A DNA stretch of 64,000 nucleotides, from the NCBI GenBank assembly GCA_043815245.1, contig JBDRJD010000034.1, positions 1,507 to 65,506 of the forward strand. Direction: 5' to 3'. The position numbers and the translations under genes were made by a program. Source of the stretch: an archaeon (GTDB taxonomy: Archaea > Nanobdellota > Nanobdellia > Pacearchaeales > GW2011-AR1). Under the pieces are notes generated by a model. The model was not told the DNA's origin. It saw only the letters and a list, made by a program, of their open reading frames with translations, and did no database searches. Below are positions 48,361 to 64,000 of the stretch, piece after piece. Numbering within the stretch: position 1 is the first letter of the stretch; each line of letters begins with the position of its first letter.

Positions 48361-48407
48361 TTTACTAACACAGAAAAGTATATAAATATCAAAGCGTAGG
48401 TTTGGGT

Positions 48408-48695: not shown

Positions 48696-48697
48696 CG

Positions 48698-49216: not shown

Positions 49217-49310
49217 GATTTACTTAATATTTCTATAATATAGAATTTGTATGATTGGTTTATAGTCAATTAGACGAAAGATATTTAAAGTAAATTATAG
49301 TTGATAGAAT

Positions 49311-52126: not shown

Positions 52127-52462
52127 GTCTTTTACATCTTCGATTCTTGCGAACTTTAGTGGCTCAAACATTTTGAACTGGCGATAAAGAATCATTACTT
52201 CTTCTTTTCTTGCAAGTTCAGATATCTCTTCGAGGATTCTTTCCATGGTATCTTTCATCCTTGAGTTTTCTGCCTTGAGTATTTCTAAGTCTGCCTTTAT
52301 CTGTGCCAGATCTTCTTCTGTTTCTTCACGAGATTCAACTAAATTCTTGCTTACTAGTAGTACGCGGTCCTTCAACAATCTCTGACGCTCTTCTACATCT
52401 CTTAAGACTGTATTGAATTCACCTAGCAGTGGTGAGATATAGTCTCCTTCCTCTTGAGCCAT
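52103..52462 (-). CDS. Coiled-coil protein, divergent from the secretion ATPase
   Basis: Likely start is the ATG at 52462 (aaagaggttaaaATG); the ORF track start at 52558 is upstream. Long heptad-rich helix (LAQIKADLEILKAENSRMKDTMERILEEISELARKEE). Confidence 0.5.
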   Translation of the reverse strand: MAQEEGDYISPLLGEFNTVLRDVEERQRLLKDRVLLVSKNLVESREETEEDLAQIKADLEILKAENSRMKDTMERILEEISELARKEEVMILYRQFKMFEPLKFARIEDVKDMIEKSKG

Positions 52463-52569
52463 TTTAACCTCTTTAATTAAATACTTCTCCTTTAGAATAG
52501 CAGGTAAAGGGGGTTTAAAATTCTTCCGACAGTAAAGTATTTTAACTGAGTTTTGCATTTAGTTTTAAG

Positions 52570-54849
52570 ATGATGTTTAAAAAAGGGACTGTGCTTTATG
52601 CGTATGAGGTTATGCGAGAGTCTGGTGAAGATATCATGTATATCAATTATCTTGGAGCTCCGCTTGTGCCAAGTCTAGCTGATTCTGCTGAGGCTATGGG
52701 GCGAGCAATTGACTCTTTGTTAGCCACACCAAACGTTTCCAGGATGGTTTTTGTTCAGCAGAGAAATTACAGTTATGACTTTCAGCAGATTTCTCTGCTT
52801 ATTGAATTAGCCCAGCTGTATACTTATTTTTTAAAACAAGAAAAAATTCTTTCTCCTTCGAGGCTAGTTTTTCAGTGCCAGCAGTGTTTGGGAAATAGGC
52901 ATAACGATATGGTTTATTTTCTTTCTCTTCTTAAGACAGACCCTATTTATGCGTATGTGGAAGTTAAGAGGTTCTTACTCAGGGAGAGGGTGATGCTAGA
53001 GAAACTTCCTGCAGATTGCAAGGCTTGCCAGATGAATTATATTAGACTGCTAGAGAAGCTGTCCAGTTTTATGGAAAATACAACTTTGATTAAGCAGGCC
53101 GCAAATTATTTGGGAGACTATAAGTCTAGAGACCGAGAGATCTACAAAAACTTTTTCAGGCCTGATGTGATTCCGAATTTTACTTTTACGAGGCTAGTGG
53201 CGAGTTTACCAAAAAATGCTGAGATTGTGGAAGAGTATGAGATTGGCGAAAATTATGATAAAAGTTTAGTAACTATTTTAAAGAAAAGAGAGGAGGCCAA
53301 GTACCTTTATCATCTCATGCCCCCCGAATATTCTTTAGGGGAAGATCACCATCTGCTCCTGAACCTTGCAAGAAATGTTTTAATTGAGCATAAGCCCAAG
53401 GCAGAAGAATTCACAGATCCTGAAAGAACAAGGCAGGTTTTTTTTAATGTGGCTAGAGATTTATTGCAGGAGCTGGCTACTAATAAGAAAGTTTCTTTAA
53501 GTTATACTGATTTGAACAAGCTTGCGAAGATTTTGGTAAGACATACGATTGGTTTTGGTTTGATAGAGGTATTACTACAAGATACTAATTTACAAGATAT
53601 AGTGCTTAATGCTCCAATTTCCCAGAATCCGATTTTTGTGAGACATAATGAGTTTGACGAGTGCATGACTAATATTGTTCCAAATTATGAAGATGCAGAT
53701 TCTTGGGCTGCTAAACTTAGAATGATTTCTGGCAGGCCTTTAGATGAAGCTAATCCTGTGTTAGATACTGACCTATCTCTTGAAAAAACAAGAGCAAGAG
53801 TTGCGGTAATTCAGCAGCCTCTATCGCCTTACGGAATTTCTTATGCTTTGAGAAGGCATAGAGATGAACCGTGGACCCTGCCTTTATTTATTAAGTGTAA
53901 TATGTTGAATTCTTTTGCCGCGGGCCTAATGAGTTTTTTAGTGGATGGGAGTAGAACTCTGCTGGTTGCTGGCACTAGGTCTGCTGGAAAGACTTCTTTA
54001 TTGGGAAGCTTAATGTTGGAGATAATGCCTAAGTTCAGAGTAATTGTTATTGAAGATACCCTTGAGCTGCCTGCTGAGGCCTTAAGGAAGATTGGATATG
54101 ATATTTTAAGGATGAAAGTCAGAAGTGCTTTATTGCAAACTACTACTGAAGTGGAGGCTGCAGAAGGGATAAGAACTAGCTTGAGATTTGGGGATTCTTG
54201 TTTGATTATTGGGGAGGTTAGAAGTTCAGAAGCTAAGGCTTTATATGAGGCTATGAGAGTTGGAGCCTTAGCTAATGTTGTTGCGGGGACTATTCATGGT
54301 GCTTCTGCTTATGCTGTTTTTGACAGAGTCGTTAATGATCTTGGAGTGCCGGTTACTAGTTTTAAGGCTACTGATGCAGTAATCGTTGCTAACCCGGTTA
54401 AGTCTGCTGATGGGCTGCATTCGTGGAGAAGAGTTGTGCAGTTATCAGAAGTGAGGAAACACTGGACCAAGGATCCACTTGAAGAGAAGGGATTTGTTGA
54501 TTTGTTGAAGTATAATGTTGAAAAGGATATTTTAGAGCCTACTCAAGAGTTGATAAATGGGGAGTCTGAAATAGTTAAGGCTGTGGCTGCAAATGTTAAG
54601 GGCTGGGCGGGGAATTGGGATGCGGTTTATGATAATATTTTATTGAGAGGAAAGATAAAACAGGCAATTGTGGATATTGCTGAACAAACTAAGAAGCCTG
54701 ATTTATTAGAAGCTAAATTTAATTCCCTGTCTAATACTATTTTTTATGAGATTTCTGATGAGATAAGGCAGGAGATAGGTTTGCCTTTAAGCGAAAGGGT
54801 TTTTCCTGAATGGGAGAAGTGGATGAAAAAGTATGTGAAGAAGCTGTAA
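52570..54849 (+). CDS. Type II/IV secretion-family ATPase (FlaI/PilB/VirB11 superfamily) with a ~440-aa N-terminal extension
   Basis: Walker A AGTRSAGKTS (53971-53997), Asp box VIVIEDTLEL, Walker B LIIGEVRSSEA, His box GTIHGAS. 759 aa. Confidence 0.8.
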   Translation: MMFKKGTVLYAYEVMRESGEDIMYINYLGAPLVPSLADSAEAMGRAIDSLLATPNVSRMVFVQQRNYSYDFQQISLLIELAQLYTYFLKQEKILSPSRLVFQCQQCLGNRHNDMVYFLSLLKTDPIYAYVEVKRFLLRERVMLEKLPADCKACQMNYIRLLEKLSSFMENTTLIKQAANYLGDYKSRDREIYKNFFRPDVIPNFTFTRLVASLPKNAEIVEEYEIGENYDKSLVTILKKREEAKYLYHLMPPEYSLGEDHHLLLNLARNVLIEHKPKAEEFTDPERTRQVFFNVARDLLQELATNKKVSLSYTDLNKLAKILVRHTIGFGLIEVLLQDTNLQDIVLNAPISQNPIFVRHNEFDECMTNIVPNYEDADSWAAKLRMISGRPLDEANPVLDTDLSLEKTRARVAVIQQPLSPYGISYALRRHRDEPWTLPLFIKCNMLNSFAAGLMSFLVDGSRTLLVAGTRSAGKTSLLGSLMLEIMPKFRVIVIEDTLELPAEALRKIGYDILRMKVRSALLQTTTEVEAAEGIRTSLRFGDSCLIIGEVRSSEAKALYEAMRVGALANVVAGTIHGASAYAVFDRVVNDLGVPVTSFKATDAVIVANPVKSADGLHSWRRVVQLSEVRKHWTKDPLEEKGFVDLLKYNVEKDILEPTQELINGESEIVKAVAANVKGWAGNWDAVYDNILLRGKIKQAIVDIAEQTKKPDLLEAKFNSLSNTIFYEISDEIRQEIGLPLSERVFPEWEKWMKKYVKKL

Positions 54850-54851
54850 AA

Positions 54852-55457
54852 ATGGGAACGAAACAAAAAAAGGCTAGAAAAAAGAAATCAAAACCAGCTG
54901 GCTATGTTTTTCTTATTAAAAATTATAAGGCAGGGGCAGAACAGATGTGGGAGGCATATCACACCTGGAAGAATCAGGATTTTATCTCTGACAAAAAATT
55001 TAAGGAATTTAGAGAAAAATCAAAACCAGTTAGCAAGGCAGCGGCCTTAGAATATTTTAGAAGTGTGCTGAAGCACTTAAATACGCTTTACAAGCTGGAG
55101 GAAACAAGGAGTTTCTTGCGTTTAATGAAAATTCGCAGAAAAATCAAGCAAACTCAAAAGATTTTGGATTCTTATGAGGAACATTATGATGATATTGTTA
55201 AAGTGGCTTATAAAGGAGAAAGAAAGCACCCGAAACTAAGTCTACTGAAAAAGATTAGTTTATCTTTAATTTCTTTCATAGTATTTTTGTTGGGGATAAC
55301 TATGGTGGCTAGGAATCTTACTGGGAGTATGATTTCTCCTTTATTTGGATTAGCTGATTCTTTAGTTGCTTTGCTTTTTGTGGTTTTAGGATTTTATGGA
55401 ATTTACTATTGTGTTCTGAAGCCTATGAAAATTTTCAAAGTTGAGTTTTTAAAATGA
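54852..55457 (+). CDS. Hypothetical protein: basic N-terminus and two C-terminal TM helices
   Basis: ATG at 54852 lies 2 nt after the ATPase stop. MGTKQKKARKKKSKP.. then two hydrophobic helices at the C-terminus. Confidence 0.5.
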   Translation: MGTKQKKARKKKSKPAGYVFLIKNYKAGAEQMWEAYHTWKNQDFISDKKFKEFREKSKPVSKAAALEYFRSVLKHLNTLYKLEETRSFLRLMKIRRKIKQTQKILDSYEEHYDDIVKVAYKGERKHPKLSLLKKISLSLISFIVFLLGITMVARNLTGSMISPLFGLADSLVALLFVVLGFYGIYYCVLKPMKIFKVEFLK

Positions 55458-55498
55458 GGATTAGGAAGGCCAGAATTGAGGATGCTAAAGGGCAGTAA

Positions 55499-55534
55499 GC
55501 TTTATATAGTTACTTTAAGTTACTAAAAGTAACT
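55499..55534 (+). promoter_or_regulatory. TATA-like box plus operator-like repeats directly upstream of the RHH gene
   Basis: gctttatata, then agttact (55508-14), agttact (55518-24), aaa, agtaact (55528-34), then ATG at 55535. The last two copies form a perfect 7-bp inverted repeat with a 3-nt spacer. Confidence 0.45.
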
Positions 55535-55726
55535 ATGGATGCAGTTGTGAAGATTGATTCTGAACTTAAAAAGAAAGCTGAAGCTTTAGTTAAAGAAAAG
55601 AGATTTGATTATCCTAATTTGAAGAATTTTGTAGACAAGGCAATTTTAATGTTATTGGAAAAGGAAGGTATAAAAAACAAAAAAACAATTAAAGTTGGTA
55701 AAAGGGGCAAAAACAATGAAAATTAA
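55535..55726 (+). CDS. Small ribbon-helix-helix (CopG/Arc-like) DNA-binding protein
   Basis: 63 aa. A beta-strand-like VVKIDSEL is followed by two helices (KKKAEALVKE; LKNFVDKAILMLLEKE) and a basic tail. Confidence 0.5.
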   Translation: MDAVVKIDSELKKKAEALVKEKRFDYPNLKNFVDKAILMLLEKEGIKNKKTIKVGKRGKNNEN

Positions 55727-55767
55727 AAATTTTCAAGCATTTAAATTTCCTTGGGAGAAATTCAAAT

Positions 55768-57924
55768 ATGACTGATATAGATAAGATATTTAGTAAGTAT
55801 AGCTCAAAGATAGAGAAGAAAATGCAGCCGGGGGTGAGTGAAGTAGGAGAGAGTTATAGCAAGGATTTTATGCAGTTTAAAGAGGACATGATGCCTAGGC
55901 ATTCCAGGTATGAGAAGCTGTGCAATTCTCTTGGAAGCTTAGTTACTATGAAAGTAGCTAAAAAGGATGAAGTAAAGATTCAGAGGCATATTGATATTGC
56001 TCATTTGGATATTACTCCAAGCCAAGCCCTGACTCTTGCTTTGTTATCTCTGCTTGTAACTTTCTTTATTGGAGTTCTGATTTTTGTTGCTATTTATTTA
56101 ATTACAGGAGGATTGCCTTTATTGTTTTTCTTTTTAGTAGTTTTAACTGCGCTATTTTTGTTTTATTATGCTTATTCAACTCCTGCCAGGCTTGCTAATG
56201 TGTGGAGATTAAAGGCAAGTTCTCAGATGGTTCCTGCTATTTTATATATTGTAGCTTATATGAAACACACAAGTAATTTAGAAAGAGCAATTGCTTTTGC
56301 CTCTTCGCACCTGCAGGCTCCACTTTCTCTGGATTTTAAGAAAGTTTTCTGGGATGTTGAGACGAGTAAGTTCTCAACTGTTAGAGAGAGTTTAGACTCT
56401 TATATTGAGACTTGGAGGGATTATAATATTGAATTTGTTGAAAGCTTTCATTTGATTGAGAGTAGTTTGTTTGAGCCTAGTGAGGATAGGAGAATTGCTG
56501 TTTTGGAAAGGGCACTTCAAGTGATTCTGGATGGAGTTTATGAGCATATGCTTAAATATACTCATACAATCAGGAGCCCCTTGACTAATTTGTATATGCT
56601 TGGAATTGTTCTTCCTACTTTAGCATTAGCTTTACTTCCCCTAGCCTCTACCTTGCTTCAGGGCGTGATAAAGTGGTATCATATTTTTATATTTTTTAAT
56701 ATCTTAATTCCGTTTTTTGTTTATTACTTAACTAGTCAGATTATGCTTAAAAGACCGGGGGGATATGGAGAAACTGATATTTTAGAGATGAATCCTCTTT
56801 ATCCCAAGTATAATAGTAAAAGGCCTTATGTGATTGCCTTGTTAGTTACTTTGCCTTTGCTCATAATTGGACTGCTGCCTTTTTTGTTTCAGTTTACTCC
56901 TTTTCCAGAATTAGTTGGACTACAAACTGATTATACTTTTAAGGAAATAGGGGTGAGTTTTTTTGGTGATGCAAAACTTTTTGGGTTTTTAACTGATGTT
57001 GATGGACATACAGTCGGGCCATTTGGATTACTTGCTTTAATTTTAAGTTTTTTTATCCCCTTAGGAATTGCAATGTTCTTTTCAATTTCCTATAAACTAA
57101 AAAGCAAGGATCTGATAAAAAGCAGAGAAGATTCTAAGCAGCTTGAGCAAGAGTTTACTAATGCTTTATTCCAGCTTGGAAACAGGCTTGGGGATGGGAT
57201 GCCTGCTGAAATAGCTTTTGCTAGAATGAGTGAGTCTTCAAGAGGATTAGTGACTGAAGATTTTTTCAAGACTGTTAATACTAATGTTCAACAGATGGGA
57301 ATGAGTTTAGAAAATGCTATTTTTCATCCTAGGAGGGGGGCGATTATTTATTATCCTTCTGCTTTAATTAGCATTAGTATGAAAATACTGGTTGATGGTG
57401 TGAAAAAGGGGTTGCAGGTTGCTGCCAGAAGCTTGATGAGTATTTCTGAGTATGTAAAGAATATTCATAAGATTAATCAGAGATTGAGAGATTTGCTTGC
57501 TGAAGTTGTAAGTGATATGAAGAGCAATATGACTTTTTTAGCTCCTTTACTGGCTGGGATAGTAGTGGGGTTAGCAGCTATGATTACTATGATTTTAGGC
57601 AAGCTACAGAGTATGTTTGAATTTGGCACTTCAAGTGAGGTGGCGGGTTTTGGATTGGAAGCTGTTTTAGATATATTTAATGTAACTGCGATGATTCCGC
57701 CGTATTACTTGCAGCTTGCTATTGGGATTTACTTAGTCCAGATTGTGTTTATTTTAACTTCAACTCTGGTAACTGTAGATGCAGGTGAGGATAGACTAAA
57801 GAGGATTTACGAAACTGGGAGGAATTTGAAGTCAGGATTAACACTTTATACTATTGCTGCTTTGATTGCTGTAATTTCACTGGCTTTCCTTGCAATGATT
57901 GCCCTGGGCGGAATGGGAACTTAA
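55768..57924 (+). CDS. Type IV filament platform protein (FlaJ/TadC/PilC-like, two T2SSF-like repeats)
   Basis: 718-aa polytopic protein. It has two cytoplasmic helical domains, each followed by TM bundles (LERAIAFASSHLQAPLSLDF.. and LEQEFTNALFQLGNRLGDGMPAEIAFARM..GMSLENAI). Sits next to the ATPase. Confidence 0.65.
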   Translation: MTDIDKIFSKYSSKIEKKMQPGVSEVGESYSKDFMQFKEDMMPRHSRYEKLCNSLGSLVTMKVAKKDEVKIQRHIDIAHLDITPSQALTLALLSLLVTFFIGVLIFVAIYLITGGLPLLFFFLVVLTALFLFYYAYSTPARLANVWRLKASSQMVPAILYIVAYMKHTSNLERAIAFASSHLQAPLSLDFKKVFWDVETSKFSTVRESLDSYIETWRDYNIEFVESFHLIESSLFEPSEDRRIAVLERALQVILDGVYEHMLKYTHTIRSPLTNLYMLGIVLPTLALALLPLASTLLQGVIKWYHIFIFFNILIPFFVYYLTSQIMLKRPGGYGETDILEMNPLYPKYNSKRPYVIALLVTLPLLIIGLLPFLFQFTPFPELVGLQTDYTFKEIGVSFFGDAKLFGFLTDVDGHTVGPFGLLALILSFFIPLGIAMFFSISYKLKSKDLIKSREDSKQLEQEFTNALFQLGNRLGDGMPAEIAFARMSESSRGLVTEDFFKTVNTNVQQMGMSLENAIFHPRRGAIIYYPSALISISMKILVDGVKKGLQVAARSLMSISEYVKNIHKINQRLRDLLAEVVSDMKSNMTFLAPLLAGIVVGLAAMITMILGKLQSMFEFGTSSEVAGFGLEAVLDIFNVTAMIPPYYLQLAIGIYLVQIVFILTSTLVTVDAGEDRLKRIYETGRNLKSGLTLYTIAALIAVISLAFLAMIALGGMGT

Positions 57925-57954
57925 GTTTAAATATTTTAGAAGATGAAGATAAAT

Positions 57955-58095
57955 ATGAAAAAAGGTGATGTGGAAATTGATAAGCTTATTATTTGGATAA
58001 TTGTAGTTTTAGGCCTTGCTGTATTAGTTTTAGGAATTTTGTTTTTTACTAAGCGACTAGATCCAAGTAATCTTCTCAAATTATTTAGACCATGA
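57955..58095 (+). CDS. Unlisted 46-aa prepilin-like mini-protein
   Basis: MKKG-DVEIDKLIIWIIVVLGLAVLVLGILFFTKRLDPSNLLKLFRP. Its stop overlaps the next ATG (ATGA at 58092-58095). Confidence 0.5.
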   Translation: MKKGDVEIDKLIIWIIVVLGLAVLVLGILFFTKRLDPSNLLKLFRP

Positions 58096-58862
58096 AAGCG
58101 CAAATAGCTATAGGTAAGATGATTGGAATAGTTTTAGGAATTTTAGTTGTAGTTGTATTTGCATTTGTTTTAACACATAGTGATGGAGCTTATGCTGCGG
58201 TTGATAATCTAATTCCTAATTGGGGAAGTGGTGGCGGGGGTGGGGGGAATGTGGTGATTATTGATAGTGATAAAGGAAGTGCTAGTTCTGGGAGTGTTTT
58301 TGATATGGTGCAGTATGTTCAGGCTAATGGTATCAGGAATAGTGCAAATGAACTTAAAACTTGCAAGGAAGATTATTCTAAGTGGATTGAGCAATATGCT
58401 GCTGAAGAAAATATTAATCCTACATTGATTTTGGCTTTGATGATGCAGGAAAGTGACTGTCAGCAAGCTACTGAATCAGAGGCTGAAGGTGATAAAAAAT
58501 CCTGGGGAGTTATTCAGATTAATAAGGAAACTTATGATGATATTTGTAAAGGTGTTGGAAGCGGATTTGAAGATATAAAGGCTAGTGCTGAAAAAAGTGT
58601 CCAGTGTGGCATTAAGATATTAAAGAAAAAGTATGATTTATATGGGGCGTATGGTAAGCAAGATTATTATCAGGGTAAGGTGGAATCTAAATGTAATGAT
58701 CCACAGTATCTGCCTAAGTATCTTACCTATACTGGGTGGGATGCTGCATTAAGGGGGTATAATGGATTAGGGTGTATCCCTCCCTTGGCTGATACAGATT
58801 ATGTAGAGAAAATAAATGCAATTAAAACTGCTTTGGAAAGTGTGCAAAATGCTGAAAGATAA
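58092..58862 (+). CDS. Membrane-anchored lytic transglycosylase (SLT / GH23 domain)
   Basis: N-terminal TM helix, a Gly6 linker, then the three SLT motifs: LILALMMQES (Glu codon at 58449-58451), SWGVIQIN and AALRGYNGLG. Confidence 0.75.
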   Translation: MKAQIAIGKMIGIVLGILVVVVFAFVLTHSDGAYAAVDNLIPNWGSGGGGGGNVVIIDSDKGSASSGSVFDMVQYVQANGIRNSANELKTCKEDYSKWIEQYAAEENINPTLILALMMQESDCQQATESEAEGDKKSWGVIQINKETYDDICKGVGSGFEDIKASAEKSVQCGIKILKKKYDLYGAYGKQDYYQGKVESKCNDPQYLPKYLTYTGWDAALRGYNGLGCIPPLADTDYVEKINAIKTALESVQNAER

Positions 58863-59889
58863 AAAAGGAGCTGCTGAATTTGTATGGAAGGTTTTGACTA
58901 TTTTACTTTCTGTGATTTGCGTTTTAGCTTTAATTTTTATTGCTTATAAGATTTATAGTGTAGTTAATCACACTTCTGCAACAAAGCAGGCGCAGGCACA
59001 TATGGATGAGCTTGAAATTAAAATAAAAGAGCTTGTGCAGCAAGGAAATGGAGCGATTTTTGATGGTTATCTTGTATTGGGGCCTAAGGGGTGGAGGTTT
59101 ATTACTTTTGATAAGGATGATCCAAAACCAAAGCAGTGCAAGAAGGATTATTGTTTTTGTATTTGTGATGGAGAGAATGCAGATGATTGCAATAAGGCAG
59201 GAGTTTGTAAAGATACTGACAAGAGAGTAAGTTTATCTTTTGCAGGATTTGGCGATAAGTCTTTTGAAATCCTGGAGCATATGGCTTCTTTGGGAGTCAG
59301 GATAGTTAATGAAGAAGAGAGAATTGTTATTGGTGATCCGGATTATGCTCCTATCGGCAGCAAGCCTGATTTTATTTTTGATGATAATTATTTTAGTTAT
59401 CCTCAGAGCACTTCACCAGATGCTGTTCATCGAGAATTAGACGACAGTAAAATGAAAAATCTCCTAGAGGAAGATAATGTGCCTACTACTTCAGGGTTTA
59501 TAAGAGGGGCAATTTCACCTTCTGAATCTTATAATATTAATCCGCTAGTAGCTCTTGCTATTATAAAAATTAAGTATAATAATGTTGAGGATGCAGTTAA
59601 AAATAATAAACAAGATGAGATTGATTATGCAAAAAATTTAGGAGTTGATTGTGCTGAAAAAGGGCTTGCAACCTTAAGTTTATGCATTGGCAAAACTTTG
59701 GAAGAAGGGTTTGATGGCAAGGCAGATGCAGACGGTTTTAAAGCAGGAGTGGAAAAAGAGATAAATGGTAAGAAATTCACCCCAGATAATAAGGCCAGTG
59801 CAGTTTTATACTGGTATACTAGAGATTATGATAAGGCAATTGAAATAGCTCAGAAGGTAAGTGTTTACAGAGACTTTTATAATAGTTAA
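58849..59889 (+). CDS. Prepilin-like protein with a large Cys-rich ectodomain
   Basis: MLKDKKG-AAEFVWKVLTILLSVICVLALIFIA N-terminus, starting at the ATG at 58849. The ectodomain contains CKKDYCFCICDG..CNKAGVC. The C-terminal INPLVALAII segment weakly resembles an SLT start but has no ES. Confidence 0.55.
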   Translation: MLKDKKGAAEFVWKVLTILLSVICVLALIFIAYKIYSVVNHTSATKQAQAHMDELEIKIKELVQQGNGAIFDGYLVLGPKGWRFITFDKDDPKPKQCKKDYCFCICDGENADDCNKAGVCKDTDKRVSLSFAGFGDKSFEILEHMASLGVRIVNEEERIVIGDPDYAPIGSKPDFIFDDNYFSYPQSTSPDAVHRELDDSKMKNLLEEDNVPTTSGFIRGAISPSESYNINPLVALAIIKIKYNNVEDAVKNNKQDEIDYAKNLGVDCAEKGLATLSLCIGKTLEEGFDGKADADGFKAGVEKEINGKKFTPDNKASAVLYWYTRDYDKAIEIAQKVSVYRDFYNS

Positions 59890-59890
59890 A

Positions 59891-60019
59891 ATGAAAAATA
59901 TAAAATATAAAAAAGCATTTATAAGCTGGCAGTTACTTAAGATAGCGTTAGTGGTAGGAATAGTTTTGATATTTATGTTTGCTATGTATTATGCACTTAA
60001 AGCGCTAGGAATCATGTAA
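59891..60019 (+). CDS. Unlisted 42-aa single-TM mini-protein
   Basis: MKNIKYKKAFISWQLLKIALVVGIVLIFMFAMYYALKALGIM. It fills the gap between its neighbours exactly (1-nt spacers). Confidence 0.4.
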   Translation: MKNIKYKKAFISWQLLKIALVVGIVLIFMFAMYYALKALGIM

Positions 60020-60020
60020 A

Positions 60021-61034
60021 ATGAGGAAACTAAAAGCAAGAAAAAAAGGTGAGCTGACTTCGAGCCAGCTGGCATTGTTGATTTTAGCTGTAATGAGTTT
60101 TTTAGTTTTACTTGGATTCTGGTATATGCTTAATATAGAGCATGAAATGAATAGCTGGTGGTGTCATTTTAGTGTTGTTTTAAGAGCTACTTTAAATAAA
60201 ATTGGAGGGGGTGCTCTGGAACTTGGGCAGTATATTGAGCTGGCGTGCAGGACTGAGAAAGTTTGTGTTCAAGAGGGTGGAGAGGGGTGTGGGGGGATTA
60301 TTGGCACTAAGGATAATCCGATTCAAAATGAAAAAGTTGATGATAAAAGAGATGTGATGAATGTGATGGCTGAAAAATTATATGAGTGTAATTCTGTTCT
60401 AGGAGAGGGAAAGATTAATTTTATGCCTTCACAGACCTTTAAGCAGAATTATTGTTTAATTTGCAGTAGAATTGCCTTTGATGATAAGGTGAAGGGAGAT
60501 ATAAAGCAAATTGGGGTGGGGGAGCTGTATCAGTATATGGAAGAAGAAAAGAAAAACAGAAGAGGAGATTCTTATTTAAGTGTTATTTATCCTGGGTGGA
60601 GCTCTTGGAAAGATTATGAAGAGCATTTTGCAGAAATGAAAAATAAAGATGATGCTATGCAAGAGGAAAGCGAGAGAAAGCTGACTGGTATTGATAATCC
60701 TGAGCAGTGGATTTATGATTTAGAACATGATGAGACTGGTTATGCTGTTGTATTTCAAATGCAAAAGAAGGGGAAGTTTTTGTCAATGTCTGCCTCAGCT
60801 CTTTCTGCAATAGGGGTGGTAATTGCTATTCCTTTTGCTGCATCAGGAGTTGGGTTGCCTATTGGATTGGGGATTATTGGAGCCTCACTGCAGGCGGGAG
60901 CTTTAGTTGGGGGAGGAGTTTATTGGTATTCTAATCCTAATGGAGAATTTGAGTATGCGCCTCCCGTGATTTTACCTTATAATGCAGGGATTCTCGATGG
61001 GTTAAAATGTACAGAATTTAATACTGCTTTTTAG
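60021..61034 (+). CDS. Prepilin-like protein with Cys-containing ectodomain and a C-terminal Gly-rich TM segment
   Basis: MRKLKARKKG-ELTSSQLALLILAVMSFLVLLGF N-terminus. C-terminal segment GVVIAIPFAASGVGLPIGLGIIGASLQAGALVGGG. Confidence 0.55.
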   Translation: MRKLKARKKGELTSSQLALLILAVMSFLVLLGFWYMLNIEHEMNSWWCHFSVVLRATLNKIGGGALELGQYIELACRTEKVCVQEGGEGCGGIIGTKDNPIQNEKVDDKRDVMNVMAEKLYECNSVLGEGKINFMPSQTFKQNYCLICSRIAFDDKVKGDIKQIGVGELYQYMEEEKKNRRGDSYLSVIYPGWSSWKDYEEHFAEMKNKDDAMQEESERKLTGIDNPEQWIYDLEHDETGYAVVFQMQKKGKFLSMSASALSAIGVVIAIPFAASGVGLPIGLGIIGASLQAGALVGGGVYWYSNPNGEFEYAPPVILPYNAGILDGLKCTEFNTAF

Positions 61035-62758
61035 CCATAGGTTAATCTGAATTTTCCAAGTGCCCACTTTTCAGGATTTGCACCTTTTTCATTGTCTACT
61101 ATCCCTATTGCGTGTGTGTCTGATATTATTATTGGGGGGCTACGAGGCATCCACTGAGAATCACGCAGTTTATTACGTTCACTAGTATGTATTTCAAATA
61201 TGGGTTGTTGGTTTCCATGGGTGTCAGATACCCCTAGAATATATGTCTCTCTTCCTTGCCAAAACTTTGCAGTATGGAATGTAAACATTTTACTGTCTGT
61301 AGACCATTGAGGGCGGTATGAGAAAAAAGTTCCACGAACCCATCCTGCACTTCTTCTCATACATGTTGTGGAGTCATAATACTCTAGTTCTTCTCTTTTC
61401 TTTATATCCTTTATAAACAGAATCTTTTTTCCATCTGGTGAGGTGTTTGCAAAACTCGTTCCATTTTCACCACTTATTTTACATCCGCGAAAGTATGTTC
61501 CATCAGCTCTTTTTTCAACTTGACCAGGGAGTATATCTGGAAAATGTATGTCTGTTGATTCAATTTCTTTAATTTCTCCTGTGCTTAGGTTAATTTCATG
61601 AATCTGAGAGCCCTGATACATTAACACGTTGTTTTTATCTTTAAATCTTGTAGGCATCTCTATAGCCCCCCTGTCTGTCACGCCTATTCGTGGGGTGTAC
61701 TTAACCCTAACTAACTCTTTATTCTTAAAGTCAGCACTCGTGACTCTCAAGTACCCTGCAGGCATTGTTGCCTCTACTGAAAGAATCCTATTAGTAGAAG
61801 GGTCAAAATCGCACAAGTGGGGAACTTGTGCTCTATCATCAACTTCTTCTAAAATCATGCCAGTAGGCAGTCCTCCTACTTTTATCCCGAGCTTTCCAAG
61901 CTCTTTCGAGTATTTTTGGAGAGTTTCTGCAGAACCTATTGGGACTAGGACTTCTAAATGAGAACGCCTGCTTCCAAGAGAGTCAAGTGAAGGAGTAAAC
62001 TTATCAGTGTTAGTTGTTATTTTTGCAATTGCTAAATAATTTTCTGATGCTGTGGGATAGCGCCGTATTTTGAAGCTTTCTGCAACTTTATTTCCAAGCG
62101 AGAAAGAGGCCATATCCTCTAAACCATTAATTTCATTGTTTGTAAGTGCAATGTAATTTTTTCCCAGTACTTTTTCAATTGCATCTTCGAGATTGTCTAT
62201 GCTTGGTTTTTCTTGAGAAGCCCGCCCTGATTCAGCTGAGGTTTGAGCAGTGCCTGCATAGGGTATTTGCGCGCGGGTAATTTGCCACATTAGTTCTGTT
62301 ACACTTTTTAGATATGGCTGTGAAAGCAGGTCTTCCCACACTGGCTTTCCAAGCTTGCCTACAGCTTTTCTTTTTTCTGAAACTTCTGCTTCTTTTAGTT
62401 CTGTTCCACTAGGCACGAATATATCTACTTTAGAAACAAGTTGCATAATTGTTTTTTCAGTTGGGTCTATTGGTGCGATGTTAATGTAAATATGGGTTCT
62501 GCTAATACCTGTTTGTACTAGAAAGTCAAGAGTATCATTTGTTGAACGCCCTGCACCTGTTGTTGGGCTTACTTTAAAAGTTTGTGCATAGGACCTTTCT
62601 GCATTGTGCGCTGTTTCAAGATGAGAGCCTTCAAAGGTATTCCCTTCTGCAGATACTGAAGGAGGCAGAACTAGATTTGCTCCCATTGCCCAGAGTCCCG
62701 TGCCCGCTGCAGCTACTGGAAAATCTCTGAATAACCACTGTCTTCTTGTGCTTCCCAT
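61031..62758 (-). CDS. Secreted protein with twin-arginine-like signal and C-terminal TolB/PD40-like beta-propeller repeats
   Basis: MGSTRRQWLFRDFPVAAAGTGLWAMGA (S-T-R-R-x-W-L). PD40-like TSPDGKKILFIKD and YRPQWSTDSKMFTF. Confidence 0.55.
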   Translation of the reverse strand: MGSTRRQWLFRDFPVAAAGTGLWAMGANLVLPPSVSAEGNTFEGSHLETAHNAERSYAQTFKVSPTTGAGRSTNDTLDFLVQTGISRTHIYINIAPIDPTEKTIMQLVSKVDIFVPSGTELKEAEVSEKRKAVGKLGKPVWEDLLSQPYLKSVTELMWQITRAQIPYAGTAQTSAESGRASQEKPSIDNLEDAIEKVLGKNYIALTNNEINGLEDMASFSLGNKVAESFKIRRYPTASENYLAIAKITTNTDKFTPSLDSLGSRRSHLEVLVPIGSAETLQKYSKELGKLGIKVGGLPTGMILEEVDDRAQVPHLCDFDPSTNRILSVEATMPAGYLRVTSADFKNKELVRVKYTPRIGVTDRGAIEMPTRFKDKNNVLMYQGSQIHEINLSTGEIKEIESTDIHFPDILPGQVEKRADGTYFRGCKISGENGTSFANTSPDGKKILFIKDIKKREELEYYDSTTCMRRSAGWVRGTFFSYRPQWSTDSKMFTFHTAKFWQGRETYILGVSDTHGNQQPIFEIHTSERNKLRDSQWMPRSPPIIISDTHAIGIVDNEKGANPEKWALGKFRLTYG

Positions 62759-62850
62759 TGTTTTTACTATATAGTAGTTATTTATAAACTTTACTATTTA
62801 AGTGTATTAGTTTACATTAAGTTTAAATTAGCTGGATTTTTATTATAAGT

Positions 62851-63237
62851 ATGCTTAGAAAAAGAGGTATGAGTGAGCTACTTGAAAGGATTTTATTTAT
62901 AGTGCTAAATATAATATTTTTCTCTATTGTTTTGCTGTTTGTGTCGGGGGCTTTTTCAGGTGCTTTGCTGTTAGAAAAAAGCTATGCTAAACAGTTTGCA
63001 CTGACGATTGATTCAGCGAGTGAGGGAAGTGAGTTTATAATTGATTTTTCTGAAGGATTAGAAATGGCAAAAAGCAGGGGAGTTAATCCGGAAGTTAGTG
63101 TAGACAATAAAAGAAATGTTGTTAAAGTAAAACTAGATAATGGAAAGGGATATGAGTATGATTTTTTTAATGATGTTGAAGTTGAGCTTGGATTTCAGGA
63201 TATGAGTATGGATAAAATTAAGATTGTTATAAAATGA
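62851..63237 (+). CDS. Prepilin-like protein
   Basis: MLRKRG-MSELLERILFIVLNIIFFSIVLLFV, followed by a ~90-aa beta-looking domain. Confidence 0.55.
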   Translation: MLRKRGMSELLERILFIVLNIIFFSIVLLFVSGAFSGALLLEKSYAKQFALTIDSASEGSEFIIDFSEGLEMAKSRGVNPEVSVDNKRNVVKVKLDNGKGYEYDFFNDVEVELGFQDMSMDKIKIVIK

Positions 63238-63650
63238 ATCGAAAGGGAACTAATTTAATGAGTGTATGGTGGTTTGTTGTGCTTATAGCTGTTACTTTTT
63301 TTATTAGTGCAAGTGTTGTGATGATTAGGGCTAAGGAAGTTGATGTAAGAACTTTGGAAGCTCAGATATTGAATAGTAAGATTTATGATTGTTTACAGGA
63401 AAAAGAGAAGCTAGATAACTTGATTTCAGATGATTTTGGGAGTTTGAACGAAGAATGTGGATTGAAGCTTGATAATGAATTCTATGTTTATATTAAAGTA
63501 AATGAAAAGGAGTTAAAATTTGGCAATCCGGATGCTGAAGTGGCGTGTCAGTTAGATGTGAAGAACAGGAAAAAACTTCCGCAGTGTTATTTAAGGGATG
63601 GAGATATTGAGATTTTAACTGCTGTGTTTAAGGTGGAGCAAAATGTTTAG
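63234..63650 (+). CDS. Prepilin-like protein
   Basis: MNRKG-TNLMSVWWFVVLIAVTFFISASVV. ATGA overlap with the upstream gene. Confidence 0.55.
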   Translation: MNRKGTNLMSVWWFVVLIAVTFFISASVVMIRAKEVDVRTLEAQILNSKIYDCLQEKEKLDNLISDDFGSLNEECGLKLDNEFYVYIKVNEKELKFGNPDAEVACQLDVKNRKKLPQCYLRDGDIEILTAVFKVEQNV

Positions 63651-64000
63651 GAAAGGTCAGATTGGGGCGCTGTTGACTTGGCTTCCTTCGTTAGTTATAA
63701 TCTTGATGGTGGGATTTATCTTACTTGCAGTTGTGTTGAGTATGGAGATTAAAGATTTGGATGCCAGTGAAGAGTTAAATGCAGGGGATTTGGCTTCAAG
63801 TAGTTTAGTGAGTTTTATGAATTCAGAAGTGCCTTTTCAGGAACAGGTTTGGAAGATGACTGATTTGATTGCTTATTGGGCTGTTTCAGAAGATGAAGAA
63901 GCTGCTAAAATTATTGAAAGTGAGGTCGAGCTGTTTTTTCCTGAAAGAGGGTTTGAACAGTACACTTTTCAAATTAATGGTAAGAATATGGGGTCTAGTT
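63643..64000 (+). CDS. Prepilin-like protein; 3-prime end cut by the window edge (not in the ORF track)
   Basis: ATG at 63643 overlaps the previous gene by 8 nt. MFRKG-QIGALLTWLPSLVIILMVGFILLAVVL is a textbook archaeal class III signal shape (KG then Q). The frame stays open to nt 64000. Confidence 0.6.
   Translation, partial: MFRKGQIGALLTWLPSLVIILMVGFILLAVVLSMEIKDLDASEELNAGDLASSSLVSFMNSEVPFQEQVWKMTDLIAYWAVSEDEEAAKIIESEVELFFPERGFEQYTFQINGKNMGSS

What the first reader, a model, noticed from the sequence alone, without database searches (positions are those of the whole stretch)
52570..64000. Type IV filament locus with oversized ATPase and platform and a run of prepilin-like proteins carrying large ectodomains
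This block is co-oriented apart from one antisense gene, and most of its genes abut or overlap their neighbours. It holds a 759-aa T2SS/T4P-family ATPase (Walker A, Asp box, Walker B and His box all visible) and a basic membrane protein. An RHH regulator and a 718-aa platform protein with two T2SSF-like repeats follow. At least six ORFs then have N-termini of the form [KR]-G, a few polar residues, then ~20 hydrophobic residues (57955, 58849, 60021, 62851, 63234, 63643). That is the archaeal class III (prepilin) signal shape. Both the ATPase and the platform are much longer than I expect for FlaI/FlaJ-type proteins (about 540-600 aa, from memory). Several of the 'pilins' are 130-350 aa with Cys-rich ectodomains rather than minimal pilins. 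One cargo is a murein-type lytic transglycosylase. In a reduced-genome archaeon this looks like a surface filament that displays enzymes or adhesins, a plausible host-contact apparatus. No prepilin peptidase, archaellum stator (FlaG/F/H) or chemotaxis genes lie in the window, so it is not a canonical archaellum operon.
Basis: partly seen in the sequence, partly recalled or inferred. Interest (0 to 1): 0.85.

Follow-up and report, generated by a model that had tools for sequence, protein, structure and literature searches.

The report
DPANN pilus locus carrying wall-cutting enzymes
This is a real, strongly conserved type IV pilus-like assembly locus of tiny symbiotic (DPANN) archaea; in several genomes its pilin-like proteins are fused to enzymes that cut bacterial cell walls, which hints that these archaea attach to or feed on bacteria.

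Summary
Window 52570-64000 encodes a T2SSE-family ATPase of 759 aa with all four motifs. It also encodes a 718-aa membrane protein that is a divergent TadC/FlaJ-type platform, and eight consecutive ORFs whose N-termini have the class III shape ([KR][GA], then a hydrophobic helix). One protein carries an SLT lytic transglycosylase domain.

The gene order is conserved in dozens of Pacearchaeota, Woesearchaeota and Nanoarchaeota genomes. It also includes two divergently transcribed coiled-coil proteins upstream of the ATPase.

- The first ORF after the platform belongs to a near-universal family of about 50-aa Flp/Tad-like minimal pilins.
- A canonical pilin family (KRG|QGLS...) lies just beyond the window end in related loci.
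- Peptidoglycan hydrolase domains (SLT, Amidase_2, Phage_lysozyme2) are fused to four different pilin-like scaffolds in nine loci.

Still unproven are pilin processing (no A24 peptidase in the window or near any locus), the pilin fold (low-confidence model) and the RHH call.

Type IV pilus-like loci with coiled-coil proteins in these lineages (Hamm 2024) and their lytic transglycosylases (Castelle 2021) are already published. I did not find their physical fusion within one machine described. Verdict: a new variant of a known kind, of moderate to high interest.

The parts
51207..51995 (-). Acidic protein of 262 aa, Q/P-rich with a C-terminal coiled coil, transcribed divergently from the ATPase. 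No signal peptide or TM helix, so probably a cytoplasmic partner or regulator.
   Evidence: Homolog next to the ATPase in 70 of 81 loci. It stays with the ATPase even where the rest of the locus is rearranged (L026, L040). Only weak coiled-coil Pfam hits.
52103..52558 (-). Small coiled-coil protein. The ORF is 151 aa, but the likely true start is the Met at about 52462, giving about 119 aa. It is the immediate divergent neighbour of the ATPase.
   Evidence: Homolog in 71 of 81 loci. Called as 117 aa in L082 and 107 aa in L001. The FlaC_arch hit is only E=0.04.
52570..54849 (+). Assembly ATPase of the T2SSE/VirB11 superfamily, 759 aa, with a conserved extra N-terminal region of about 190 aa.
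   Evidence: Pfam T2SSE 4.8e-15. NCBIfam FlaI and TadA about 1e-34, both below their cutoffs. PDB 2oap 2.7e-30 aligning from query residue 216. Motifs located. Homologs are 67-84% identical and 756-766 aa long in Pace-, Woese- and Nanoarchaeota. Invariant residues run throughout the N-terminus.
54810..55457 (+). Basic protein of 215 aa (pI 9.8) with two C-terminal TM helices. It occupies a variable insertion slot between the ATPase and the platform and is not a conserved component.
   Evidence: No homolog in any of 81 loci. This slot holds unrelated genes in other loci.
55535..55726 (+). Small basic protein of 63 aa. It may be a DNA-binding regulator, but the RHH assignment is unverified.
   Evidence: Homologs at the same position in 5 loci, plus a 61-aa gene in L082. 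No Pfam or PDB hit.
55768..57924 (+). Polytopic membrane platform protein of 718 aa: a divergent TadC/FlaJ-type protein with two T2SSF-like repeats.
   Evidence: No direct hit. 39 of 68 divergent family members hit Pfam T2SSF. The AF2 model (pLDDT 75) matches the EpsF and OutF cytoplasmic domains with probability 0.95-0.98. Internal repeat at residues ~120-209 versus ~429-518, P=6e-4. Distant relatives are named 'type II secretion system F family protein' in Aenigmarchaeota.
57943..58095 (+). Tiny prepilin-like protein ('family A', 50 aa): a basic leader ending in KKG, then a mature peptide of about 42 aa made of one hydrophobic helix and a short polar tail. Candidate Flp/Tad-like major pilin.
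   Evidence: Hits the family A HMM at 5.4e-13. The family is present in 25 of 26 loci with enough downstream sequence. The [KR][GA] lies in one alignment column and is followed by acidic and aromatic residues.
58092..58862 (+). Lytic transglycosylase of 256 aa: N-terminal hydrophobic helix, Gly-rich linker, then an SLT (GH23) domain.
   Evidence: Pfam SLT 3e-9, 36.9 bits against a cutoff of 21.3. QES at residue 119, GVIQ at 139, GYNG at 222. SLT proteins sit at the same position in L082 (488 aa) and L043. The N-terminus does not reach significance against the family B HMM.
58816..59889 (+). Pilin-like protein 'p357' (likely start 58849, MLKDKKG|AAEF...) with a Cys-rich ectodomain (10 Cys).
   Evidence: Family present in 24 of 26 loci. 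[KR][GA] precedes the hydrophobic helix in 31 of 32 members.
59861..60019 (+). Small single-helix ORF (52 aa; likely start 59891, MKNIKYKKA|F...). Similar mini-ORFs lie just before p337 in a few loci.
   Evidence: L019, L029 and L043 have analogous 40-47-aa ORFs. It is a weakly supported gene.
60021..61034 (+). Pilin-like protein 'p337' (KKG|ELTSSQ...). Its ectodomain has three nearly invariant Cys, and its C-terminal segment is Gly-rich and hydrophobic.
   Evidence: Family present in 26 of 26 loci. Motif in 40 of 46 members, with E at +1 in 27. Conserved Cys. Gly-zipper hits in two members of the combined p337/p357 alignment.
61031..62758 (-). Antisense gene of 575 aa with a Tat-like 'TRRQWLF' N-terminus and a weak beta-propeller signal. 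It is an insertion, not a conserved part of the locus.
   Evidence: No homolog in 81 loci. TolB-propeller hit only 0.003.
62851..63237 (+). Pilin-like protein 'p128' (RKRG|MSELLERILFIVLN...). Candidate minor pilin.
   Evidence: Family present in 26 of 26 loci. Motif in 39 of 39 members. The AF2 model shows a long N-terminal helix and six strands, but pLDDT is only 61 and Foldseek finds no pilin match.
63234..63650 (+). Pilin-like protein 'p138' (NRKG|TNLMSVWWF...). Candidate minor pilin.
   Evidence: Family present in 25 of 26 loci. In other loci members of this family carry Amidase_2 or SLT domains.
63643..64000 (+). Pilin-like protein 'pEnd' (FRKG|QIGALLTW...), cut off by the end of the window.
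   Evidence: Translation. Family present in 22 of 26 loci. The L061 member carries Amidase_2.
48698..50335 (+). Three paralogous 5-TM proteins of 162-179 aa. They are conserved neighbours of the locus. Their function is unknown, and whether they belong to the machine is unproven.
   Evidence: Homologs upstream of the coiled-coil genes in 44-61 of 81 loci. No Pfam or PDB hit.

Best explanation
This is a lineage-specific type IV filament (Tad/Epd-like) assembly locus of a Pacearchaeota-type DPANN archaeon.

Shown:
- A TadA/FlaI-superfamily ATPase with an extra conserved N-terminal domain.
- A fused two-repeat TadC/FlaJ-type platform.
- A conserved downstream series of proteins whose N-termini have the class III signal shape.

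Inferred mechanism:
1. The ATPase hexamer docks on the platform.
2. Pilin-like proteins are inserted into the membrane.
3. A class III signal peptidase encoded elsewhere trims them after [KR][G/A].
4. They are then extracted into a filament.
5. The bulk subunit is the roughly 42-46-aa Flp-like 'family A' peptide (57943-58095), the canonical 'family D' pilin that lies beyond the window end, or both.
6. p357, p337, p128, p138 and pEnd act as minor pilins that prime or tip the filament.
7. Peptidoglycan hydrolase modules ride on, or sit beside, these scaffolds. In this window the module is the SLT protein at 58092-58862; elsewhere it is Amidase_2 or a phage-type lysozyme. At the point of contact they would nick the wall of a bacterial partner, since the archaeon itself should have no murein.
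8. The two coiled-coil proteins next to the ATPase are probably cytoplasmic regulators or scaffolds.

My probabilities: type IV filament-type machine about 0.85; it makes an external filament about 0.6; the hydrolases are physically presented by it and act on bacterial hosts about 0.35.
For: - ATPase family and motifs.
- Platform is T2SSF-like by transitive Pfam hits, fold match and internal repeat.
- [KR][GA] lies directly before the hydrophobic helix in 142 of 153 members of five families, against 151 of 409 control ORFs with an N-terminal TM helix.
- Eight such ORFs lie in a row in the last 6 kb of the window, against about four genuine cases in the other 58 kb.
- The N-terminal modules of the families resemble each other, hhalign P from 3e-6 to 1e-3.
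- Gene order is kept across dozens of species-level genomes. In 26 loci with at least 7 kb after the platform the counts are A 25, B 18, p357 24, p337 26, p128 26, p138 25, pEnd 22, D 23.
- Family A matches the published description of Tad pilins: 40-60 residues, no globular domain, a conserved aromatic residue near +6, a polar C-terminal patch (PMC10710030).
- Family D has a textbook KRG|QGLS leader, like the EppA substrates KGQV and KGQI (PMC4371748).
- Peptidoglycan hydrolase domains are fused to position B, p128, p138 and pEnd scaffolds in nine loci.
- The closest relative, L082, keeps an SLT protein at the same position.
- SLT catalytic motifs are present.
- Pacearchaeota were enriched in the >2.5 um size fraction, read by the authors as host attachment (bioRxiv 10.1101/2020.05.14.094862), and are proposed to bind bacterial walls (PMC8204110).
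Against: - No class III signal peptidase was found in the 64-kb window, or by a TM-count plus GxGD motif screen (not a profile search) within 10 kb of the ATPase in any of 82 related loci.
- No member of any pilin-like family reaches a curated archaeal pilin or flagellin model in Pfam or NCBIfam.
- The only structure model of a pilin-like protein is of low confidence and matches no pilin.
- The window's SLT protein, L082's SLT protein and the short 'family B' proteins lack a basic leader, so they may simply be membrane-anchored.
- Hydrophobic helices inflate profile-profile similarity.
- Part of the synteny (helicase, M50-like protein, PRC barrel) is probably lineage-wide conservation of gene order rather than functional linkage.
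- There is no expression, imaging or biochemical data for this lineage.
Confidence: 0.6

Rival explanations
1. Bindosome- or pseudopilus-like surface assembly system. The ATPase and platform do not build a long pilus. They build a short, cell-bound pseudopilus or envelope scaffold that positions enzymes with pilin-like anchors at the cell surface. This would resemble the Sulfolobus Bas system, which positions class III sugar-binding proteins, or a T2SS pseudopilus that pushes cargo out.
For: - Many different pilin-like proteins with large, variable ectodomains, including enzymes.
- NCBIfam BasE hit at 9.4e-16.
- The concept of 'functionalised' archaeal type IV filament machines with class III cargo is current (bioRxiv 10.64898/2026.04.22.720090).
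Against: - The BasE score (57.6 bits) is far below its cutoff and weaker than the FlaI and TadA scores.
- Near-universal Flp-like and canonical small pilins fit a true filament better.
- No substrate-binding proteins are in the locus.
Confidence: 0.2
2. The hydrolases serve the machine rather than acting as cargo. As with VirB1-type enzymes of bacterial envelope-spanning secretion and pilus systems (from my own knowledge, not checked here), the lytic transglycosylase or amidase would open a wall layer so that the apparatus can assemble. That layer could be the archaeon's own wall or the interface layer.
For: - The peptidoglycan hydrolase genes are embedded in the locus directly after the platform.
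- The SLT proteins at position B (window, L082) have a plain N-terminal anchor.
Against: - Archaea of this group are not known to make murein, and the published reading is that these enzymes target bacterial walls (PMC8204110, PMC9723730, PMC12352652).
- Only about nine of roughly 50 loci carry a hydrolase, so it is not required for assembly.
- Fusions to p128, p138 and pEnd scaffolds argue for presentation rather than a housekeeping role.
Confidence: 0.1
3. An uptake machine rather than an adhesion or attack machine. A retractile Tad/Com-like filament would capture extracellular DNA or other polymers for a nucleotide-scavenging organism. The hydrolases would be unrelated membrane ectoenzymes kept nearby by conserved gene order.
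For: - Weak ComGA similarity of the ATPase, 4.6e-10.
- Pacearchaeota are proposed to live on scavenged nucleotides (PMC8204110).
- Some synteny around the locus is clearly lineage-wide rather than functional.
Against: - No ComEC or DprA-type genes, and no second (retraction) ATPase, among the locus genes scanned.
- Hydrolase domains are fused to the locus-specific pilin-like families themselves, not merely encoded nearby.
Confidence: 0.1

Closest known systems
Type IV pilus-like loci with coiled-coil proteins of 'cluster 2' DPANN archaea (Hamm et al. 2024, Nat Commun, PMC11291902, Fig. 4)
   Same: The lineages match: Pacearchaeota, Woesearchaeota and Nanoarchaeota, with Aenigmarchaeota relatives of the platform. 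The core also matches: a CpaF/TadA-like ATPase, TadC, adjacent coiled-coil protein genes, and pilin-like genes in one locus.
   Different: That paper centres on Nanohaloarchaeota and on the coiled-coil proteins. In the text and supplements I could read, it does not describe the mini Flp-like pilins, the set of five to eight pilin-like families, or the peptidoglycan hydrolase fusions. I could not test homology of the window's coiled-coil proteins to theirs.
Bacterial Tad/Flp (type IVc) pilus
   Same: - TadA/CpaF-like ATPase (TIGR03819 3.5e-34; CpaF structures 1e-19).
- A pilin of about 40-60 residues with no globular domain, a G/A cleavage site, an acidic-aromatic pair near +4/+5 and a polar C-terminal patch (PMC10710030).
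- Several minor pilin-like proteins.
   Different: - One fused platform gene instead of TadB plus TadC.
- The ATPase is about 250 aa longer and scores below the TadA family cutoff (118.5 against 373 bits).
- No TadV-type peptidase, TadZ or secretin in the locus.
- No Pfam family hit (hence no Flp model hit) for the window mini-pilin.
- Pilin-like proteins are fused to wall hydrolases.
Methanococcus Epd pili and other euryarchaeal type IV pili (Makarova 2016 PMC4858521; Pohlschroder & Esquivel 2015 PMC4371748)
   Same: An archaeal ATPase plus TadC and multiple pilins. The KG|Q-type processing sites of EppA substrates resemble pEnd (RKG|QIGA) and family D (KRG|QGLS).
   Different: Epd has two platform genes and a dedicated EppA peptidase. 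No curated pilin model recognises these proteins. The extra ATPase N-domain and the enzyme fusions are not described for Epd.
Sulfolobus bindosome assembly system (Bas) and 'functionalised' type IV filament machines (bioRxiv 10.64898/2026.04.22.720090)
   Same: The idea that non-pilin cargo proteins with class III-type N-termini are assembled at the surface by an ATPase and platform pair.
   Different: The cargo here is peptidoglycan hydrolases and unknown Cys-rich domains, not substrate-binding proteins. The BasE model is far from met (57.6 against 1000 bits).
Murein-like lytic transglycosylases and other peptidoglycan hydrolases of DPANN archaea (Castelle 2021 PMC8204110; Vigneron 2022 PMC9723730; PLoS Biol 2025 PMC12352652)
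   Same: SLT/GH23, amidase and lysozyme domains in Pace-, Woese- and Nanoarchaeota, read as tools against bacterial walls.
   Different: Those studies treat the enzymes as stand-alone secreted proteins. Only 32% had a recognised Sec or Tat signal in PMC12352652. Here a subset sits inside the pilus locus on pilin-like N-terminal modules, which suggests a delivery route.
Type IV pili of episymbiotic Saccharibacteria (CPR) (PMC9894109, PMC11623550)
   Same: Ultrasmall episymbionts that use type IV pili for host contact, which is a functional analogy.
   Different: That is a bacterial T4a-type machine, unrelated at the locus level. I read only the titles and abstracts, which describe pilus-mediated host binding and do not mention wall hydrolases; I did not check the full text for pilin-hydrolase fusions.

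Membership tests
Type IV filament (TFF) superfamily machine | Secretion ATPase of the T2SSE/VirB11 family with Walker A, Asp box, Walker B and His box | tested here: met
   Pfam T2SSE 55.5 bits against a cutoff of 24.9. PDB afGspE, CpaF and FlaI hits. Motifs located.
Type IV filament (TFF) superfamily machine | Polytopic platform protein of the T2SSF (PilC/GspF/TadC/FlaJ) family next to the ATPase | tested here: met
   No direct hit for the window protein. However, 39 of 68 full-length family members hit PF00482 (best 1.1e-15). The fold matches the EpsF and OutF cytoplasmic domains with probability 0.95-0.98. Internal duplication P=6e-4.
Type IV filament (TFF) superfamily machine | Pilin subunits: class III signal peptide plus an N-terminal hydrophobic helix on a pilin fold | tested here: inconclusive
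   The signal shape is conserved in 142 of 153 members, and families A and D look like Flp-type and canonical prepilins. No Pfam or NCBIfam pilin model is hit. The p128 model has pLDDT 61 and no pilin match.
Type IV filament (TFF) superfamily machine | Class III signal (prepilin) peptidase of family A24 in the genome | not testable with these tools
   None in the 64-kb window. None found by a TM-count plus GxGD motif screen within 10 kb of the ATPase in 82 related loci. Whole genomes could not be searched.
Archaellum | FlaI equivalog, plus archaellins (FlaA/B) and FlaF, FlaG and FlaH | tested here: not met
   FlaI model 120 bits against a cutoff of 550. No archaellin or Fla accessory family hit in any locus protein. 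FlaC_arch only E=0.04 for the coiled-coil protein.
Tad/Flp pilus | TadA-family ATPase; separate TadB and TadC; Flp pilin of 40-60 residues; TadV peptidase | tested here: not met
   TadA model 118.5 bits against a cutoff of 373. A single fused platform. A Flp-like mini-pilin is present by architecture, but Pfam returned no family for it. No peptidase. It works like Tad in several respects but is not a member by the curated criteria.
Bindosome assembly system (Bas) | BasE ATPase and BasF, with class III substrate-binding proteins | tested here: not met
   BasE 57.6 bits against a cutoff of 1000. No binding proteins in the locus.
SLT / GH23 lytic transglycosylase (protein at 58092-58862) | SLT domain above the Pfam gathering score, with the catalytic Glu-Ser motif | tested here: met
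   36.9 bits against 21.3. 'QES' at residues 119-121, GVIQ at 139, GYNG at 222. Catalysis itself was not tested.
Cluster 2 DPANN pilus-like locus with coiled-coil proteins (Hamm 2024) | CpaF-like ATPase, TadC and adjacent coiled-coil protein genes in Pace-, Woese-, Nano- or Aenigmarchaeota | tested here: met
   Arrangement and lineages match (PMC11291902, section 8). Sequence homology of the coiled-coil proteins to the Nanohaloarchaeum proteins was not tested.
Ribbon-helix-helix regulator (63-aa ORF) | Match to an RHH/CopG/Arc family model or fold | tested here: not met
   No Pfam or NCBIfam hit. No relevant PDB hit.

The most novel reading that the evidence does not exclude
Pacearchaeota-type DPANN archaea build a Tad-like filament whose minor or tip subunits are modular carriers for murein-cutting enzymes (SLT, amidase, phage-type lysozyme). 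The filament would be a cross-domain 'drill' with which an archaeon attaches to and breaches the wall of a bacterial host. The class III-like N-terminal module would be the missing export signal for many archaeal peptidoglycan hydrolases that lack a Sec or Tat signal.
Probability: 0.3. Interest if true: 0.8.

Novelty: new variant of a known kind. Interest (0 to 1): 0.6.

Why it matters
The hosts and attachment mechanisms of Pacearchaeota and Woesearchaeota are unknown, although these are among the most abundant ultrasmall archaea in groundwater and lakes.

A conserved pilus-type machine whose pilin-like subunits repeatedly acquire peptidoglycan hydrolase domains points to bacteria as partners or prey. 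It names concrete proteins to test: the SLT ectodomain, the mini-pilin and the conserved minor pilins.

It would also offer an export route for archaeal peptidoglycan hydrolases, most of which have no recognised signal peptide (PMC12352652). It would add an archaeal example of an enzyme-armed type IV filament.

It also corrects the statement that type IV pilus components are missing from DPANN genomes (bioRxiv 10.1101/2020.05.14.094862). That statement was used there to assign imaged pili to CPR bacteria.

Tried and rejected
- **Archaellum operon: rejected.** FlaI scores far below its cutoff, and there are no archaellins or Fla accessory genes.
- **Direct T2SSF detection in the window protein: failed.** This was true in Pfam, NCBIfam, PDB phmmer and PDB profile search. 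The first internal-repeat test, with a shallow alignment, gave nothing. Only the diverse alignment worked.
- **Upstream membrane proteins as the prepilin peptidase: rejected.** I tested the 5-TM paralogs (48698-50335) and the 211-aa membrane protein (47082-47717). They have no A24 hit, no conserved GxGD and no PDB hit. The 211-aa protein looks like an M50-type protease instead.
- **Curated pilin models: no significant hits.** I tried Pfam and NCBIfam on the p128/p138, p337/p357 and D families. The best result was UpsA at 0.006 in two members. The family D profile against PDB gave only insignificant N-terminal matches to an archaeal flagellin and a geopilin.
- **Structure of p128: inconclusive.** Only seven homologs were retrievable. 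The model has pLDDT 61, and the top Foldseek hits are ribosomal proteins.
- **RHH call for the 63-aa ORF: no support**.
- **Assigning the window SLT N-terminus to 'family B' by HMM: not significant**. I keep only positional and architectural equivalence.
- **A GC-content argument that the antisense 575-aa gene is foreign: dropped.** Its GC is 0.404 against 0.392 for the ATPase.
- **Reading past the window end: not possible.** Exact-sequence lookup of the window's own contig found no record.

Full report
**What is in the sequence.**
The window comes from a DPANN archaeon. It encodes the archaeal PolD large subunit at 1458-4931. The proteins of the region are identical to records named 'MAG: archaeon'. 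They are 67-84% identical to proteins of Pacearchaeota, Woesearchaeota and Nanoarchaeota MAGs.

From 52570 to the window end all ORFs but one lie on the + strand, and they abut or overlap. The genes are listed here in order.

| Coordinates | Strand | Product |
|---|---|---|
| 52570-54849 | + | 759-aa ATPase |
| 54810-55457 | + | 215-aa basic protein (pI 9.8) with C-terminal TM helices |
| 55535-55726 | + | 63-aa basic protein |
| 55768-57924 | + | 718-aa polytopic protein |
| 57943-58095 | + | 50-aa ORF |
| 58092-58862 | + | 256-aa SLT protein |
| 58816-59889 | + | 'p357' |
| 59861-60019 | + | 52-aa ORF |
| 60021-61034 | + | 'p337' |
| 61031-62758 | - | antisense 575-aa gene |
| 62851-63237 | + | 'p128' |
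| 63234-63650 | + | 'p138' |
| 63643-64000 | + | 'pEnd', cut by the window end |

**The ATPase.**
- Pfam T2SSE scores 4.8e-15, above its cutoff.
- NCBIfam gives near-equal scores to FlaI (1e-34) and TadA (3.5e-34). Both are far below the family cutoffs.
- The best solved relatives are Archaeoglobus GspE 2oap (2.7e-30), CpaF (1e-19) and FlaI (1e-16).
- Walker A, Asp box, Walker B and His box are at residues 468-475, 494-499, 546-551 and 573-577.
- The 2oap alignment starts at query residue 216 and chain residue 27. About 190 N-terminal residues are therefore extra.
- These extra residues are full of invariant positions in a 20-sequence alignment.
- Family members are consistently 756-766 aa long.
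- 'Oversized' is correct, and the extra part is a conserved domain. This fits the recent view that archaeal type IV filament ATPases differ mainly in their N-domains (bioRxiv 10.64898/2026.04.22.720090).

**The platform.**
The window protein has no direct hit in Pfam, NCBIfam or PDB sequences, either alone or as a 24-sequence profile. Three independent indirect tests agree.
1. A profile search of 1.84 billion representatives found 1209 relatives. Of 68 divergent full-length members (23-33% identical to the window protein, E<=1e-78 to the profile), 39 hit Pfam T2SSF on their own, best 1.1e-15. Named members are 'type II secretion system F family protein' of Aenigmarchaeota.
2. The AlphaFold model has pLDDT 75 and pTM 0.70. 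It matches the EpsF and OutF cytoplasmic domains with Foldseek probability 0.95-0.98, TM 0.64-0.70 normalised to the target, and rmsd 3.2-3.5 A over about 115 columns. E-values for the whole 718-aa query are only 2-3.
3. With a diverse alignment, residues ~120-209 align to ~429-518 at P=6e-4.

I accept it as a divergent, fused two-repeat TadC/FlaJ-type platform.

**The pilin-like proteins.**
A permissive scan of the whole window looked for [KR][GA] followed within 9 residues by an 18-residue hydrophobic stretch. It finds eight consecutive ORFs between 57943 and 64000. Elsewhere in 58 kb only about four genuine N-termini match; the other hits are internal starts of multi-pass proteins.

I fetched 80 loci from species-representative genomes through the ATPase, plus L001 and L082. 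I then compared all their ORFs with the window proteins.
- The [KR][GA] motif sits directly before the hydrophobic helix in 142 of 153 members of the p357, p337, p128, p138 and pEnd families.
- The same holds for only 151 of 409 control ORFs with an N-terminal TM helix.
- The N-terminal modules of the families resemble one another in profile-profile comparison, P from 3e-6 to 1e-3. TM helices inflate such scores.
- The processing-site shapes (KKG|ELT, RKG|QIG, KRG|QGL) resemble experimentally known archaeal sites such as KGQI, RAQI and KAIS (PMC4371748).

*Family A.* Immediately after the platform almost every locus has a 48-57-aa ORF.
- The aligned [KR][GA] column is followed by (I/V)(I/E)x(D/E)(Y/M)L(P/G)W, a helix of about 22 residues, and a polar tail ending in ...IKNLFRFG.
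- The window ORF 57943-58095 (KKG|DVEIDKLIIW...NLLKLFRP) is a member, HMM E=5.4e-13.
- The mature length is about 42-46 residues.
- This matches the description of Tad/Flp pilins. They are 40-60 residues long, have no globular domain, carry a conserved aromatic residue near position 6, and have a polar C-terminal patch that forms the filament surface (PMC10710030).

*Family D.* This family is 110-170 aa, reads KRG|QGLSTNAIILIVLGVVVLVVL...GW...NVDT...C..AC, and has four invariant Cys.
- It lies downstream of pEnd in 35 loci.
- The window ends before this position, so the locus is truncated here.

*Family B.* This family is about 50 aa, starts M(A)ELTIxQLIK..., and ends ...VIDFFKNLP.
- It has no basic leader.
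- The same N-terminal module heads large variable proteins of up to 684 aa.

**Conservation of the set.**
The conserved order is as follows:

helicase< M50-like< PRC-barrel> 5-TM paralogs> | Q/P-rich coiled-coil< coiled-coil< ATPase> [variable slot] platform> A> B/variable> p357> p337> p128> p138> pEnd> D>

- In 26 loci with at least 7 kb after the platform, the families are present in 25 (A), 18 (B), 24 (p357), 26 (p337), 26 (p128), 25 (p138), 22 (pEnd) and 23 (D).
- Where rearrangements occur (L026, L040), the two coiled-coil genes stay with the ATPase. They are its tightest partners.
- The 215-aa basic protein, the antisense 575-aa gene and the mini-ORF at 59861 have no BLASTP homolog in the other loci, so they look like insertions or weak gene calls.
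- The refutation test 'the gene set does not stay together' is clearly failed.

**The enzymes.**
The window SLT protein passes Pfam's cutoff and has the ES, GxxQ and YN motifs. Hydrolase domains occur inside the cluster in nine loci.

| Domain | Scaffold or position | Loci |
|---|---|---|
| SLT | position B | window, L082 (488 aa), L043 |
| SLT | p128 family | L081 |
| SLT | p138 family | L052 |
| Amidase_2 | p138 family | L030 (2.5e-17, plus CBM56), L063 |
| Amidase_2 | pEnd family | L061 |
| Phage_lysozyme2 | position B | L001 (1.2e-26) |

Three hydrolase types appear on four different scaffolds. That pattern implies repeated, independent fusion, and it is the strongest argument that the pilin-like modules act as carriers.

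One caveat applies. The window and L082 SLT proteins have a hydrophobic N-helix, a 'FF..'-type motif and a Gly-rich linker, but no basic leader (MKA|QIAIG...; MANQQMTNKIIAL...). They may simply be membrane-anchored.

**What remains open.**
- No A24 peptidase is in the window. A TM-count plus GxGD motif screen also found none within 10 kb of the ATPase in any related locus. Makarova et al. already noted nanoarchaeal genomes with a secretion ATPase but no A24 peptidase (PMC4858521).
- No curated pilin model recognises any of the families.
- The only homolog search possible for a pilin-like protein returned seven sequences. The resulting p128 model has the expected topology, a helix at residues 3-55 and then six strands. 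Its pLDDT is only 61, and Foldseek found no pilin.
- Pilin identity therefore rests on the conserved signal shape, on genomic linkage, and on analogy.

**Comparison with the literature.**
- Hamm et al. [quoted passage not shown] These loci also carry coiled-coil proteins and occur across Nanohalo-, Woese-, Pace-, Nano- and Aenigmarchaeota (PMC11291902). The present locus fits that description.
- Large murein-like lytic transglycosylases of Pace- and Woesearchaeota are also published (PMC8204110, PMC9723730).
- A 2025 survey found peptidoglycan hydrolases prominent in Nanoarchaeota, with only 32% of archaeal peptidoglycan hydrolases carrying a Sec or Tat signal (PMC12352652).
- None of the texts I could search links the hydrolases to the pilus locus or to pilin-like N-termini.
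- One groundwater study even stated that type IV pilus components are missing from DPANN genomes.
- The 2016 and 2026 censuses of archaeal type IV filament systems do not cover this clade in any detail.

**Verdict.**
The locus is real and is a type IV filament-type machine. It works most like a Tad/Epd system but fails the curated membership criteria for Tad, the archaellum and Bas. It is a lineage-specific variant.

Its distinctive feature is the recurrent arming of pilin-like scaffolds with wall hydrolases. I rate it a new variant of a known kind, interest 0.6.

Noticed in passing
window 34410-34889 (+): A 159-aa ORF far from the locus has a textbook class III-like N-terminus (MMNKKG|LFGIIGIALIVIAFVFGV...). 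It may be an orphan pilin that uses the same machine.
   Followed up: no
window 47082-47717 (-): A 211-aa 5-TM protein with an M50 site-2-protease-like 'NMLPISKLDG' motif but 'SELGH' in place of HExxH. It is conserved next to the helicase and PRC-barrel genes upstream of the locus in 50 of 81 loci. It is not an A24 peptidase.
   Followed up: partly
window 48402-50335 (+): A PRC-barrel protein is followed by three paralogous 5-TM proteins of 162-179 aa with a conserved 'LPFLLxF...K(T/I)K(L/I)(F/L)G(E/D)N' start. This block is conserved upstream of the coiled-coil genes in most loci. It has no family assignment and its function is unknown.
   Followed up: partly
proteins P0044, P0062, P0084 (homologs of window 52570-54849): Some ATPase homologs are 1275-1300 aa long and carry intein splicing and LAGLIDADG endonuclease domains. 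The ATPase gene therefore hosts an intein in some lineages.
   Followed up: no
L029 (JAFCCB010000001.1) and L069 (DATKUW010000085.1): Records labelled 'Candidatus Dojkabacteria bacterium' and 'Bacillota bacterium' carry the complete archaeal locus in the usual order. These contigs are most likely mis-binned.
   Followed up: no
window 61031-62758 (-); also L001:17882-19222, L023:15921-17957, L037:8832-10556, L049:15484-17523, L054:17234-18703, L073:17091-20552: Many loci carry a different, unrelated antisense gene inside the pilin run, between the platform and p357, for a large protein; several start with a short hydrophobic, signal-peptide-like N-terminus by eye. In the window the antisense gene sits later, between p337 and p128, and has a Tat-like TRRQWLF motif and a weak propeller signal. 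Why antisense genes for apparently secreted proteins accumulate inside the pilin run is unexplained.
   Followed up: partly
between ATPase and platform: window 54810-55726; L010:9990-13433; L017:6307-11618; L082:9255-9773: The ATPase-platform junction is a hot spot for unrelated insertions. Examples are a 1147-aa protein in L010, a 5-kb block of eight ORFs in L017, and a phosphoribosyltransferase in L082. In several other loci the two genes are only 12-66 bases apart.
   Followed up: partly
L063:8159-9420: The Amidase_2-bearing member of the p138 family appears to be split into two overlapping ORFs (8159-8986 and 8860-9420). This could be a frameshift, a pseudogene or an assembly error.
   Followed up: no
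family B, e.g. L045:10175-10339, L062:7906-8067, L069:14715-14876: These roughly 50-aa proteins begin directly with M(A)ELTIxQLIK. That is the sequence p337-type proteins would expose after leader cleavage (KKG|ELTTQQ). They look like 'pre-processed', leaderless pilin-like peptides.
   Followed up: partly
whole window: GC skew is positive in nearly every 2-kb bin, and the cumulative skew rises steadily across all 64 kb. Most genes lie on the + strand.
   Followed up: no
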